From: Octopus vulgaris | Taxonomy: Eukaryota | Reading direction: 5' to 3' | Assembly (NCBI GenBank): GCA_951406725.2 | Contig: OX597822.1 | Span: forward strand, 10,292,001-10,356,000 | DNA: 64,000 nucleotides | Shown here: positions 3,356 through 54,378 of the stretch, piece by piece | Layout of the letters: every line of letters begins with the position of its first letter | Position numbering within the stretch: position 1 is the first letter of the stretch | The notes under the pieces: generated by a model | Told to the model about the DNA's origin: nothing | Seen by the model: the letters and a program-made list of their open reading frames with translations, nothing else | Databases searched by the model: none | Position numbers and translations under genes: made by a program

Positions 3356-4848
3356 ATATCTATGGAGCCAATATTTAAAACCAATATTATTATCGTTAAG
3401 GCGGCGAGGTGGCGGATCGTTATCACGCCCGACAAACTGCTTAGCGGTATTTCGTCAATATTCTGAGTTCATCATTGCCTTTCCTCCTTCGGTGTCGATA
3501 AAATAAATACTAGTTAAACACTAGGGTCGATATAATCGACTTAACCCTTTACTAAAATTGCTGACCTTGTGTCAAAATTTGAAATTGATATTTTAATTAC
3601 CATCACAGCAATAACAGAATTGATTTCAGATTTTCTCACAAGGACAGCAATTTTGAGGAACAGGTTAAGTCGATTACATCGTCCCCAGTATTCTACTGAA
3701 ACTTATTTTATCGACACTGAAAGTCGACTTTGATGGAATTTGTGCTCACAACTTGAAGACGGAAGGAATACTGCTAAGTAGAAAGGATAGTGTTCTAGTA
3801 GTGGTGGTTTCTAACTTGAGCACAGGACCAATAGTTTTGGGGTAGGATGTAGTACTTGATATCATCGATCTCTGGACTTGGCTTGTACTCTGTTTTAGCG
3901 ACCTCAGAGGGATGAAAGGCGAAGTTAATTGCATTTGGATCTCAACTTAGAACGTAGAGATACGCAATATATTTTGTACGACGCAAAACATTTTGTACGA
4001 CGCACTTAATGGTTCTGTACAGAACGTCAGCTTTAATTTCTATTAAAAAACTTTGTGGGTGGGAAATATTTAATTCCATCGACCCCAGGGCTTGACTGAT
4101 TTTCATTTCATTTATTGCGAAATGATGAAAGGCGAAGTAGACATGTGATTGAAAATGGAATGCCAGAAGAAACGTCGCTGAACATTTTGCCCGGTCTGCT
4201 AACGATTCCGCCAGCTTTATCACCTTTCTGTTTTAAATTATAAGGAAACTAGCTAGAGAGGAAGCATGGAAAATCCATGTTGTATGTGAATATCTACTTG
4301 CCCTTCTGCCGCTGTATGTATGTGTTTATTCTCACAATACTGAAAAGAATTTAAAATTAAATTTTAAGAAAGAACAAAATGAATAATCAGTGTCCCAGCA
4401 GGGCCAGAGATTTTGATCTGAAGCACGTAAAAGATGTTTAACAACTACAACTATTTTCTAAATCAGGTCATTTTCCATTAATTTAAACATCTATCGATGT
4501 ATCTTTTGATGCATAAACTTATAAAACTTCATGAAATTTCATTGTTAAATATTTTGAGCTCATATATATATATATATATATATATATATATATATGGATG
4601 GATGGAGGAATATACACACGATTACACACGTACATGCACACACACATGCATACATATATACATACCTACCTACCCACCCACCTACCTACCTACCTACTTA
4701 CCAACCTACCTACCTACCTACCTACCTACATACATACATACATGCATGCATATATACACACATACGGGTGAGTAGACAAACGAAAGAAGGACACTCAACG
4801 CATTTATTAGGAGTGACATGTATAGGTCAAAACAGTTTAATTCAGATT

Positions 4849-4895
4849 CCTTGGTACTCCGAGTTTCAAAACGTGGTGCTAATCCTCAGCCATGG
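4849..4895 (-). ncRNA. Minimal type-I hammerhead ribozyme-like motif (canonical CUGAGGA core)
   Basis: CCAUGG-CUGAGGA-uuagcaccacguuuu-GAA-ACUCGGAGU-A-CCAAGG: stem I with one mismatch, near-palindromic stem III, GUA triplet, weak stem II. Confidence 0.62.
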
Positions 4896-5704
4896 AAAAT
4901 TCCAATGGATAAGGATTAGCATCATGTTTTGAAGCTCGGATTGAAACACGCTTTGAAACTCGGAGTAGCAAGGAATAACTGTTCTGATCCATATATGTGT
5001 GTGTTTGTGTGAGTATGTGTGTGTGTGTGTGTGTGTGTGTGTGTGTGTGTGTGTGTGTGTGTGTGTGTGTGTGTGTGTGTGTTTCCATTCGAATTATTAC
5101 CTCTCTTGGCCTAACACATGGTGAAAATCGACAGACTACAGCAATAAAGAAAATGATATAATAATATGTATATTATATTAGTTAAACAACACATGGTAAA
5201 TAAGAAAAAAATGATATAAACATAAATATTGCAAAACATTAATTCGGGTCAATTAAGAATATCAGCACATTTCTTTTTCTGTACAATTGTTGGGTGAAAA
5301 ACGGAAGAAGGAACTATCCAGTATGTTGCTAGCTTTATTTGTGACTACTTTATTATAAGCTAATCTGTAGCACTGATTGAGGAAGGACGACAGGCGTTCT
5401 CAGAATAGCTCAAACAAGCCAGGAAATGGACTACCAGATGCTTCCCTTTGTATCTGTATATCAGTAGCATGTAAAGAATGCGTTTACATTCATATTTAAC
5501 TCACGATGAGGTTTCATGATATTGAAATTTATATTAATAAAATTAACATAATTATGATACTTATGTAATGACATAATAATGATAATAACAACAACAATAA
5601 CAACAACAACAATAATAATAATTATTATAATAATAACTATAATAATAATAATAATAATAATAATAATAATAATAATAATAATAATAATAATAATAATAAT
5701 AATA

Positions 5705-6180
5705 ATTGTTTTGTCTTTGTATAAAAGATGGGCTACAGAAAATATCCTGCTCAATACCTCAGATTTGCTTGTCAGTTGTCTGACCTTAACCAGTTGAGCA
5801 CGTCCCTTAGTGGCTGACGATATGTGCATCTCTGATCAATAGCAGAAGTAGTGGGGGAGCAGCATAGCCGTGTGTTGAAAGGAATTCTTTGGGGTTTGGA
5901 TAATTCACCTTTGGAAACATGGGTGGTTCGTTCAACATCCTTAAACAATCCTAATCCAGGGACCTTTTGAGCGGGATGGGTTATTCGACCTGAAGAAAAC
6001 TCCGATCCCCACCTGCAAGGTCATGCGCTGTTTGATCTTGATATGAGATCACCATGTCGCACACATATGGCTGTGATGCATGTGCCTGGTGTACCCTTAT
6101 CAGACGGGTGGTCATGATGGGTATATTGGGCTTCGTATATTTTACCCCAGTGTCACTTTGATGTCATGTACTGTTCTCTC
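5705..6180 (+). mobile_element. ~480 bp (AAT)n-embedded interspersed repeat, copy 1
   Basis: Nearly colinear with 8865-9379 and 9412-9897; all three end ..CTC directly before (AAT)n. Confidence 0.85.
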
Positions 6181-6244
6181 AATAATAATAATAATAATAA
6201 TAATAATAATAATAATAATAATAATGATAATAATAATAATAACA

Positions 6245-52400: not shown

Positions 52401-52647
52401 GCTATAGTAGAAGACACTTGCCCAAGGTGTCACGAAGTGGGACTGAACCCGGAAACATGCAATTGGGATGTAAACTTCTTATCACTCAGCGGCGCCTTTA
52501 GGTCCTGCTGAAAGGTTCGATGTCACGTGACTCATTATCCGTCCTGTCATTTAGTTTCTCCTCTTAATATCAATCAGAATGATAATTTTCTGTAGCGATG
52601 ATCTCACTGCCTCAAGATGTGGCTAACCAGTCGCATTATTTGTATCA

Positions 52648-52708
52648 CTAGCTGACCCCGTGCCGTCAAAAATGACGGCTAATTGTAGCATTTTATATAT
52701 GAATAAGA
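52648..52708 (-). mobile_element. Miniature Helitron-like element (61 bp) or Helitron 3' terminus
   Basis: Minus strand A|TCTTATTCATATATAAAA...GCCGTCA-TTTT-TGACGGC-ACGGGGTCAG-CTAG|T: 5' TC, subterminal 7-bp hairpin, 3' CTAG, inserted between A and T. Confidence 0.65.
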
Positions 52709-54336
52709 TACAAAATAATCACTGATACAAACATTCACATAATTCCCTTGTACACGCACACACATACACATATACTCACAAAGAGTTGAAACGCTGTTTG
52801 ATTTTTCTTTTCAGAATTGAATATTCCCCATCCTACTTACATCGCGCACACACACACACACACACACACACACACACACACACACACACACACATTCATA
52901 TGATTCCTTTTTACCACAGAGTTGAAACTTTGATTTTTCTTTTCACCGAAGTACTTCCATCATCCCACAACCAAATTTGCCATTACCCCTTCCTTCCTTA
53001 TTCATCTATCACTCCGTCCTTTCTTATTCATATGATGTGACGGATAAATACACAAGAGTATTGTTATAGTAAAATGATTACCATGTCTTGAGCTCTTCAA
53101 GACGATGCTCTTTTCAAGAGTTCATCTTTTCTAAAATAATCTTAATATGAAACTCTCAGGAATTTCCACAAAGCGCCCGACGCTTCACTTGCTTCTGGTA
53201 TCATTGGTAACGCGATGATGCAGATTGTTGTTGAAGCAAAATGGCTAACGTTTTCATCATGTAATGGAGCGGTGTTCTTCATTGAGCATTGGCGCTAGGC
53301 CTTTAGCTTTATTGGACAATATTGTAGAAACAGCAATCAACTGGGTCGTTATGGCTTGTGCACATTTGCACTACAGTTACAGACTGAGAACCGCGGGCAT
53401 CAAGCTGCACCTGCACAGCAACACCAACTTAACCATTTTACATTTTGGAGAGATAGCGGAGAATCCACCCATGTATATCTTACGGTCATTAACTTCAACG
53501 AAATTAAACGTACTCGTGCTGAAGGACCTACATATGCCATGGGTCATCCTCTTGCCCCTCCTCCTGCTCCCCTTCCTGCTCTTCCTCCTGCTCCTCCTAC
53601 TTATCTTCCTAGAGCAGAAGAATGTCGCGAAGAATACCAAATTAATTCATGTGTTGGTTTTTTACGTCTATGATTCCTACGGCTGCTGAAAAATTTACGA
53701 GATGTGTTTATTTCAACAATGTTGGATGAGAAGTTATTTGTCATCGAACACAAAACATTGAGCATTAAAAAAAAAATCTCACTAAAATTAAAACAATGAC
53801 ATTCTCTGAAGCTGTCAATGTCACGAAATTCTTTCTGAGGAATTTCTACAAAATTTTAATGACAAAATCTGTAAATGTGTATTTTGATACGATAGGTACT
53901 TCCAAGGCTGTGGGAGATTTTGTGAAGTTTGTTTATTGTACTTTTGCTTTCAGTGTTTTTGTAGTGTTGTTGTTTTGGTTTTTAATTATTTTCTTACTTT
54001 GCTTCCTTATCTCGCCTCTAATCACGCATTCCGTTGTTATTGTTTGCTGGGAATATGTTTGGGTTAGGAGCGGATATCATATTTTCCCTTTAAATTTAAA
54101 CATCGTGCATCACTTTGTACACACACGGGTGCTCGTACCGTTATACATATGTATATTTAGTTACGCATATACAAACTTGTAAGTTTATATGTGTGTGTGT
54201 GTATACAAACATATATATATATATATATACATACATATACATATATATGTAATATATTTATATATATATATATATATATATATATATGAAAAAACAAGTC
54301 AGGATAGAAAATACTAAAATAATTCTATAAAGAACA

Positions 54337-54378
54337 TTTCAGTACCGGTTTCAGTCATTGAGACCTTTTCAACTGTAA
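54337..54378 (-). ncRNA. Minimal type-I hammerhead ribozyme-like motif (U3-A8 core)
   Basis: UUACAG-UUGAAAA-GGUC ucaau GACU-GAA-ACCGGU-A-CUGAAA: stems I and II pair, palindromic stem III, GUA triplet. Confidence 0.62.

What the first reader, a model, noticed from the sequence alone, without database searches (positions are those of the whole stretch)
4826..54378. Recurring minimal hammerhead ribozyme motifs, several with a U3-A8 core, in short fold-back elements around Pitx
Seen: three well-formed motifs (24991-25042 +, 4849-4895 -, 54337-54378 -) and four degenerate ones (about 14089, 17506, 25322, 33121-33200). They share the layout stem I / YUGANRA / short stem II / GAA / palindromic stem III / cleavage triplet / stem I, yet the stems differ in sequence, so structure is kept across unrelated repeat families. 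They lie in 150-500 bp elements in or beside (TA)n/(CA)n, often with inverted duplication. Known: Penelope-like element termini carry minimal type-I hammerheads whose palindromic stem III allows dimeric cleavage, and C3-G8 can covary to U3-A8. Inference: this genome hosts several non-autonomous Penelope-derived or retrozyme-like families with a variant hammerhead (U3-A8, U.U or G.U at the base of stem II). I found no Penelope RT or GIY-YIG ORF in the window, and I cannot tell whether these families are already catalogued.
Basis: partly seen in the sequence, partly recalled or inferred. Interest (0 to 1): 0.8.

Follow-up and report, generated by a model that had tools for sequence, protein, structure and literature searches.

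The report
Octopus retrozyme with Penelope insertion footprint
Three hammerhead ribozyme motifs are really present in and near an octopus Pitx gene, and the best one sits in a 355-base non-coding repeat unit whose copies join head to tail and lie back to back in TA runs, so it is likely a retrozyme copied by Penelope-type jumping genes, a known kind of element whose predicted self-cutting and circular RNA are untested here.

Summary
The three well-formed hammerheads are real: 3 found against 0.007 per shuffled window. Three of the four degenerate sites look like decayed hammerheads; the site near 14089 was not recovered. The host is an octopod. The motifs are not one kind. Motif 1 (core 24999-25032) is not minimal: it has a long stem I and lies in a closed, non-coding 355-nt unit. 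The head-to-tail joint is in the window itself and in 3 of 4 runs laid, which fits a non-LTR retrozyme. Both window copies are back-to-back arms inside (TA)n, the Penelope insertion pattern. Within this family the core switches between U3-A8 and C3-G8 (with C4) and the stem III palindrome covaries. Motif 2 matches the published Hydra-clade Penelope hammerhead; motif 3 is a Penelope-type remnant. U3-A8, U.U at the base of stem II, dimer-type stem III, inverted arms and TA targeting are all in print. I found no paper on octopus retrozymes. Cleavage, circles and the partner enzyme are untested. Verdict: new member of a known kind, moderate interest.

The parts
24692..25206 (.). Whole insertion of the 355-nt family: two arms joined at their 5' ends, both 3' ends running into (TA)n
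   Evidence: (TA)n at 24647-24694 and 25202-25249
24860..25206 (+). Right arm: 347 of the 355 nt of one monomer, uninterrupted across the predicted cleavage site; antisense to Pitx
24692..24853 (-). Left arm: 162 nt, 161 identical to a doubled monomer; it runs across the monomer joint (114 nt of the right arm's 3' end, the 13-nt link, then 35 nt of the right arm's start) and has no hammerhead
24727..24739 (-). 13-nt link that closes the monomer; the same link or close variants lie between 25201 and 24860 in contigs of 3 of 4 runs
   Evidence: tables 5 and 5c
24854..24859 (.). 6-nt filler between the arms, origin unexplained
24966..25064 (+). Motif 1: type I hammerhead with extended stem I rod; core 24999-25032, U3-A8, U10.1.U11.1, palindromic stem III; predicted cut after C25032
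   Evidence: family variants
41142..41245 (.). Second, shorter copy of the 355-nt family: back-to-back arms of 63 and 41 nt inside a TA-rich run, no hammerhead
4847..4897 (-). Motif 2: C3-G8 hammerhead with the Hydra-clade Penelope signature (U on both sides of stem II, stem III ACUC-G-GAGU); stem II weak in this copy
4816..4998 (.). Back-to-back arms that carry motif 2; the + arm is decayed; both end in a TA/TG-rich run
54336..54380 (-). Motif 3: short hammerhead, U3-A8, G.U at base of stem II, stem III CCGG; same strand as the Pitx transcript; single copy
17507..17552 (+). Decayed minimal hammerhead (C at position 9, broken palindrome, intact 5-bp stem II with G10.1-C11.1)
25319..25356 (+). 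Minimal hammerhead with U at position 6, in a separate element between two (TA)n runs; its downstream part matches 50006-50076
33030..33295 (.). Fold-back element (82% self-complementary) with a decayed U3-A8 core in each arm, arms joined just upstream of the cores
14089..14135 (-). Heavily decayed hammerhead-like layout, seen by eye only; not recovered by any scan
38331..38408 (.).
11933..12454 (-). Last coding exon of Pitx (host context); no upstream exon lies in the window, so 12455-64000 is intron

Best explanation
The best motif is a type I hammerhead inside a non-coding 355-nt unit whose copies join head to tail and lie back to back in (TA)n, likely a non-LTR retrozyme copied by the enzymes of a Penelope-like element, while the other motifs are likely 5'-truncated Penelope 3' ends. 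Shown: the closed 355-nt unit, its presence with variants in runs under at least three organism labels, covariation in the core and stem III, and the insertion layout. Predicted by folding: one monomer misfolds (the 5' strand of stem II pairs with the stem III palindrome), while two copies fold into the double hammerhead. Inferred: tandem source loci are transcribed; paired hammerheads cut after GUC and release monomers, which a host ligase would close into circles as shown for coral, mussel and axolotl retrozymes; a Penelope endonuclease nicks (TA)n, and each nicked strand primes reverse transcription at a UA-rich patch of the RNA, giving two 5'-truncated arms joined back to back. The right arm runs across the cut site and the left arm across the monomer joint, so the template would have been a circle or an uncut multimer. 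The partner is most likely a TA-targeting, hammerhead-bearing clade such as Hydra (inferred, weak). No role in Pitx regulation is indicated.
For: Motifs far above chance. Left arm 161 of 162 identical to a doubled monomer across the joint. The same joint (goes back 342, 13 letters between) in runs X2, X8 and X11. Overlapping contigs link the start of the unit to the hammerhead without a coding insert in all four runs; one 285-nt contig with 34 differences spans 24869-25146, so the short form exists in a subfamily about 15% diverged. At most 1% of what was laid from the three DNA or unlabelled runs runs on into unlike sequence. That one contig carries four two-sided changes that keep pairs: 3-8 core pair, stem III palindrome, 24986-25043 and 24969-25061. 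Depth peaks over the hammerhead (233,000 in X1) against 7,600-8,700 just upstream and 54,000 just downstream, read as local conservation. Circular fold -112 kcal/mol, z -6.4; z -2.8 without the ribozyme rod. Dimer fold equals the double hammerhead, -55.4 against -52.4 for two monomers. Two of two window copies are back-to-back arms in TA runs, and in each copy one arm ends near monomer position 347-350 and the other near 35-39, matching the published inverted copy and one-sided 30-40-bp tail of Penelope elements. Motif 2 shares stem III and flanking U residues with Hydra-clade entries; octopus has a TA-targeting Hydra element.
Against: No contig spans a whole monomer plus joint, and X1, the best holder, shows no joint (about 80% of that run read); a joint in contigs does not separate tandem arrays from scattered permuted copies. 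Summed depth over the unit's two ends is 50 to 100 times that of the stretch upstream of the hammerhead, which an abundant longer parent sharing those ends would also give. Three of 16 variants at paired positions break a pair without a partner change, and 25043 A>T is the major form in X1 while its partner change at 24986 appears only in X11. Rfam finds no hammerhead in 24860-25200 at E up to 10. With the C3-C4-G8 changes the dimer's lowest-energy fold is not a clean double hammerhead. In Xenopus 8 of 9 predicted retrozyme dimers did not cut. No sequence link to an autonomous element was found.
Confidence: 0.72

Rival explanations
1. The 355-nt unit is a gutted Penelope element: the joint is the ordinary pLTR-to-5'-end joint of a long parent, and the short form is an internal-deletion derivative that rides along without a ribozyme-made circle of its own.
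For: Depth over the two ends is far above the middle. Non-autonomous Penelope derivatives with head-to-tail copies are known (MRC1). An earlier unchecked note reached this reading for another genome (e1-7814458).
Against: The short form is continuous in all four runs and in a subfamily about 15% diverged. The dip lies where that subfamily differs most, so the 80% likeness filter can explain it. Almost nothing laid runs on into unlike sequence. The long stem I resembles retrozyme hammerheads more than minimal pLTR ones.
Confidence: 0.2
2. The family was once a retrozyme, but its ribozymes are now dead or dispensable, and it spreads from uncut linear transcripts or as DNA.
For: Both main cores depart from the consensus; U4C considerably lowers activity in vitro. 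The monomer is predicted to misfold. Naiad elements spread without hammerheads. 8 of 9 Xenopus dimers were inactive.
Against: Two-sided changes keep the 3-8 pair and the palindrome; no listed variant touches G5, A6, A9, G12-A15.1, U16.1, C17 or the six pairs of stem I (5 variant rows not shown, and the 80% filter favours conserved copies). U3-A8 cores are active in vitro.
Confidence: 0.2
3. The motifs were co-opted to cut or regulate the Pitx pre-mRNA.
For: Five of the seven listed sites plus motif 1 lie in the last Pitx intron; motif 3 is on the transcribed strand.
Against: Motif 1 is antisense to Pitx and its arms are identical over 114 nt, so the insertion is young. Motif 3 is a single copy with a 4-nt palindrome that would need a partner. 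All sites lie in repeat fragments.
Confidence: 0.03
4. The motifs are chance look-alikes in fold-back DNA.
For: The relaxed scan gives 2.4 loci per shuffled window; Rfam is silent. This may apply to the site near 14089.
Against: 3 against 0.007 for the intact motifs; covariation; match of motif 2 to published Penelope hammerheads.
Confidence: 0.02

Closest known systems
Non-LTR retrozymes of animals (Cervera and de la Pena 2020, PMC7229834; Li, Clavereau and Pollet 2026, 10.64898/2026.07.22.740005)
   Same: Type I hammerhead in a non-coding 150-450-nt unit; GC under 50% (44.5% here); strongly self-paired circle; size as in mussel (350-390) and axolotl (330, 350); the axolotl Amex2 motif also has U.U at the base of stem II and works best as a dimer.
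   Different: Host is an octopod, not named in the text I read. Core toggles between U3-A8 and C3-C4-G8 in one family. Copies here are back-to-back truncated arms in (TA)n, not arrays with target duplications. Those papers link retrozymes to Penelope elements by co-occurrence and pLTR similarity; I saw no insertion-footprint argument in the parts read. Circles and cleavage are shown there and not here.
Minimal hammerheads in pLTRs of Penelope-like elements (Cervera and De la Pena 2014, PMC4209133)
   Same: U3-A8 covariation, palindromic stem III, many unrelated families per genome, opposite-strand pairs 100-700 bp apart, mostly single truncated copies. The sites at 17513 and 25324 have the extra nucleotide after A9 and G10.1-C11.1.
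   Different: Motif 1 has a 6-bp stem I plus a long extension and a 6-nt palindrome, so it is not minimal, and it lacks G10.1-C11.1.
Hydra-clade Penelope-like elements (Craig et al. 2021, PMC8557442, Files S1 and S2)
   Same: (TA)n targets, inverted 5'-truncated copy, U on both sides of stem II, stem III ACUC-G-GAGU as in Hydra-2_aMil and Penelope-16_HM (motif 2); the octopus Hydra-1 stem III (ACCA-A-UGGU) resembles the major variant of motif 1.
   Different: No RT or endonuclease ORF here; five of six short window motifs had no match in that supplement (lines wrap, one strand searched); the listed octopus Hydra-1 hammerhead differs in stems I and II.
Natural hammerhead core variants (Perreault et al. 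2011, PMC3088659)
   Same: U3-A8, U10.1.U11.1 and weak stems II and III seen in nature; U4C known from a viroid.
   Different: Here C4 appears to be the major form of a repeat family in one organism label (50,240 of 56,832 depth in X1) and alternates with U3-A8 among related organisms.
MRC1 and other non-autonomous Chlamys elements (PMC8557442)
   Same: Short non-autonomous Penelope-dependent units with head-to-tail copies.
   Different: Most Chlamys elements lack a canonical hammerhead; green algae.

Membership tests
Type I hammerhead ribozyme (motifs 1-3) | Conserved core with 3-8 pair, GAAA, NUH triplet and three helices, stem I open | tested here: met
   3 against 0.007; U3-A8 in two motifs
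Type I hammerhead ribozyme (motifs 1-3) | Covariation that keeps pairs among copies | tested here: met
   motif 1 only: (13 of 16 paired-position variants keep or restore pairing alone or with a partner change; 3 break it); not tested for motifs 2 and 3
Type I hammerhead ribozyme (motifs 1-3) | Match to an Rfam hammerhead model | tested here: not met
   (motif 1 region, E up to 10); one search listed only 150 of 541 matches, none a hammerhead
Type I hammerhead ribozyme (motifs 1-3) | Self-cleavage at the triplet | not testable with these tools
   needs an in vitro assay
Non-LTR retrozyme (355-nt family) | Type I hammerhead in a non-coding unit of 150-450 nt, GC under 50% | tested here: met
   355 nt, GC 44.5%; no Pfam family in the two frames tested there
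Non-LTR retrozyme (355-nt family) | Head-to-tail joint between units | tested here: met
   window left arm; 3 of 4 runs
Non-LTR retrozyme (355-nt family) | Genomic arrays of two or more full units, each with a hammerhead | tested here: inconclusive
   no assembly held; no contig spans a full unit
Non-LTR retrozyme (355-nt family) | Highly self-paired monomer | tested here: met
   z -6.4 circular; z -2.8 without the rod
Non-LTR retrozyme (355-nt family) | Expressed as monomeric linear and circular RNA | not testable with these tools
   only contigs available; RNA label of X11 is a guess
Minimal pLTR hammerhead of Cervera 2014 | Short stem I, no or 2-nt stem III, extra nucleotide after A9, G10.1-C11.1 | tested here: not met
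   not met for motif 1; layout met for the decayed sites 17513 and 25324
Penelope-like element insertion | Inverted 5'-truncated copy, one-sided 30-40-bp tail, microsatellite target | tested here: met
   2 of 2 copies of the 355-nt family, end sites about 45 nt apart; inverted arms also at 4816-4998, 33030-33295, 38331-38408
Hydra-clade Penelope element (motif 2) | Hammerhead signature and (TA)n target | tested here: met
   by-eye comparison with File S2 and one exact 11-nt match
Hydra-clade Penelope element (motif 2) | RT plus C-terminal GIY-YIG ORF of that clade | tested here: not met
   0 of 102 frames; the copy is a short 3' end, so the clade is suggested, not assigned

The most novel reading that the evidence does not exclude
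Octopuses carry an abundant 355-nt ribozyme-made circular RNA whose hammerhead has been detuned in two alternative ways (U3-A8 with a self-locking palindrome, or C4) so that circles survive to be copied, and whose insertions record how a Penelope enzyme works: both nicked strands of a TA run prime on the circle at two UA-rich patches about 45 nt apart. That would be a direct footprint that Penelope enzymes move retrozymes, and a simple origin for the unexplained one-sided Penelope tail.
Probability: 0.3. Interest if true: 0.65.

Novelty: new member of a known kind. Interest (0 to 1): 0.38.

Why it matters
What remains is a candidate octopus retrozyme that Rfam does not detect. Its copies show the Penelope insertion pattern, which bears on a question left open in 2020 and addressed only by phylogeny in 2026: which enzyme moves animal retrozymes. 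It also offers two natural core forms in one scaffold, a ready pair for testing how much cutting such an element needs. With only two insertions examined, the priming model is a lead.

Tried and rejected
No whole genome is held, so copy numbers, arrays and a parent element could not be counted. No RNA holder listed; this says nothing on expression. In run X11 (RNA by guess) one 285-nt contig of depth 813 dominates, which would fit one highly expressed locus, but DNA can be in that run, so it is not used as evidence. Rfam on the whole window returned microsatellite noise; on the monomer, nothing relevant. The repeat finder was swamped by microsatellites. Exact-pattern scans of metagenome contigs and viral contigs found 0 loci. 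Pfam on 102 reading frames found only the Pitx OAR motif above a curated cut-off; frames under 55 aa and most repeat-rich frames were left out. Five of six short motifs had no match in the Craig 2021 supplement. The idea that the 6-nt filler marks a reverse-transcriptase jump over the ribozyme rod was dropped: a 6-nt match is expected about one time in six by my estimate. A loose candidate at 3753-3797 (U3.G8, 1-bp stem II) and one at 54659-54696 were judged chance. Earlier-finding look-ups by sequence, by the first word set and by genome were empty. A paper I recall on Penelope hammerheads cleaving as dimers (Lunse, Weinberg and Breaker 2017) is not held, so core variants listed there were not checked.
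Full report
Observation. The window is octopod DNA: the reading frame at 11933-12454 (-) is identical over 174 residues to the last exon of a Pitx protein whose cluster is named from Argonauta hians, while the next best molluscs reach 65-77%. 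No upstream exon is in the window, so 12455-64000 is the last intron, transcribed on the minus strand. A relaxed scan recovers three of the four degenerate sites but not the one near 14089, and is only modestly above chance: 7 loci against 2.4 (2 of 100 shuffles as high), or 4 against 0.92 with a stronger stem II (6 of 300). The three main elements are unrelated in sequence. No RT or GIY-YIG family was found in 102 reading frames.

Motif 1 is not a minimal hammerhead. Its 6-bp stem I continues into a rod from 24966 to 25064 (-44.6 kcal/mol, z -5.8). Rfam gives no hammerhead match for 24860-25200. The insertion spans 24692-25206 between two (TA)n runs and consists of two arms joined at their 5' ends with a 6-nt filler. 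Read on the minus strand, the left arm is the last 114 nt of the right arm, then 13 new nt, then the first 35 nt of the right arm. This implies a closed unit of 342 + 13 = 355 nt; the left arm matches a doubled monomer at 161 of 162 positions. I then laid contigs of 4 of the 24 listed runs on 24855-25201. The predicted joint, going back 342 with the same 13 letters or close variants between, appears in X2, X8 and X11 but not in X1. Twenty of the 24 listed rows hold part of the stretch, from 10 studies and four organism labels; one may be the window's own source.

Family variation (5 variant rows, 1 indel row, 101 loose-end rows and 1,697 piece rows were not shown). Positions 3, 4 and 8 of the core change together to C, C and G: about 50,000 of 57,000 summed depth in X1 (5 to 8 contigs), but about 1,200 of 63,000 in X2 and 17 of 1,850 in X8. 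The stem III palindrome swaps its two central letters and stays a palindrome (180,000 of 222,000 in X1). G8 exceeds C3 in X2 and X8, so a U3.G8 form probably exists too. One 285-nt contig of X11 carries all of these plus two further two-sided changes in the rod, though nearby indels make the outer one uncertain. I tabulated the 19 of 40 listed variants that fall in 24962-25063: 3 unpaired, 6 keep or restore a pair alone, 7 keep it with a partner change, 3 break it. Depth peaks over the hammerhead and dips just upstream; depth here is a sum over contigs, not a copy number. The circular monomer folds at -112 kcal/mol (z -6.4, 0 of 150 shuffles as low), the opposite strand at z -2.8 and the part without the rod at z -2.8. 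For the window form, the monomer pairs stem II with the palindrome (probability 0.99), while the lowest-energy dimer is the double hammerhead; for the C3-C4-G8 form the dimer has stems II and III but a partly shifted stem I.

Insertion pattern. A second copy at 41142-41245 again has two arms back to back in a TA-rich run. In both copies one arm ends near monomer position 347-350 and the other near 35-39, both UA-rich patches, with left and right roles swapped. Craig et al. 2021 describe the inverted 5'-truncated copy, a 30-40-bp tail often at one end only, and (TA)n targets as Penelope features. Motif 2 also lies in back-to-back arms, and its stem III and the U on each side of stem II match Hydra-clade entries in their File S2; octopus has a TA-targeting Hydra element. 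Motif 3 and the decayed sites are best read as Penelope 3' ends; their families were not examined.

Mechanism. Shown: unit, joint, covariation, insertion layout. Predicted: dimer-dependent folding. Inferred from the coral, mussel and axolotl work: transcription of tandem loci, cutting, ligation to circles, and copying by a Penelope RT primed in nicked (TA)n. Because the right arm crosses the cut site and the left arm crosses the joint, the template was not a freshly cut linear monomer for at least the right arm. The chief rival is a gutted Penelope element: depth over the unit's ends is 50 to 100 times that of its middle, and no contig spans a whole unit. Against it, the short form is continuous in all four runs and in a diverged subfamily, and 0-1% of what was laid from X1, X2 and X8 (7% in X11) runs on into unlike sequence. 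A second rival is that the ribozyme no longer cuts; 8 of 9 Xenopus dimers did not. Nothing points to a role for Pitx.

Comparison with print. U3-A8 and U10.1.U11.1 in nature, and U4C in a viroid: Perreault 2011 (passages and section 8). U3-A8 in Penelope hammerheads: Cervera 2014 (parts 1-2 of 4 and supplement passages, one file not searchable). Retrozymes and the axolotl U.U motif: Cervera 2020 (parts 2-4 of 6; supplement unreadable). Retrozymes as non-autonomous Penelope sequences: Li 2026 (parts 1 and 3 of 5 and passages; no mention of octopus or molluscs in the main text; supplements not seen). Craig 2021: passages and supplement parts 2 and 52 of 59. De la Pena 2017 review: passages. The 2026 Octopus vulgaris repeat annotation lists 31 recently active Penelope-like families and does not contain the word ribozyme (passages). 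Searches for hammerhead or ribozyme with octopus (25 of 51 and 25 of 29 listed), hammerhead with retrozyme (40 of 46), U3-A8, U4C, Penelope with octopus and retrozyme with Penelope, inverted and insertion showed no paper on an octopus retrozyme, judged from listings. Repeat databases and the unread supplements may hold the family.

Verdict. Observation partly confirmed; interpretation partly supported. The variant features are known. The 355-nt family is a new member of a known kind, with two points of real but modest interest: a Penelope insertion footprint on a retrozyme-like unit, and two alternative cores in one family. Interest 0.38.

Noticed in passing
window 38331-38408 and 32849-32935: Fold-back with the 3' half of a Hydra-type hammerhead; the inverted arm starts about 1 nt after the predicted cut site, as if copied from a cut RNA (one case). 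The downstream part recurs at 32849-32935.
   Followed up: partly
window 4816-4998 and 33030-33295: In both fold-backs the arms join within about 10 nt upstream of the hammerhead core, which may mark where reverse transcription stops.
   Followed up: partly
window 25324-25330: Core with U at position 6 in an otherwise intact minimal hammerhead; whether this is the family consensus is unknown.
   Followed up: no
window 15743-15803 and 42807-42867: Two copies of a short repeat with a hairpin followed by GAAA and a CCGG palindrome but no recognisable first core box.
   Followed up: no
window 8191-8499 (+): Reading frame that looks by eye like the restriction-type endonuclease end of an R4/Dong-like retrotransposon (motif recalled; no Pfam hit).
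   Followed up: no
window 32548-32826 (-): Reading frame that looks by eye like the C-terminal end of an RTE-type retrotransposon (recalled; no Pfam hit).
   Followed up: no
window 59487-62909, with copies at about 2000, 3140, 6290, 12640, 29870, 45450, 56880: Dense cluster of one abundant short repeat family in both orientations, with 268-nt inverted arms at 59933-60200 and 61996-62263.
   Followed up: no
window 13684-13800: 117-bp near-perfect hairpin element (88% self-complementary) beside TA runs, MITE-like.
   Followed up: no
window 5707-6180 and 9417-9893: 474-bp duplication at 91% identity, with older partial copies near 8926-9379.
   Followed up: no
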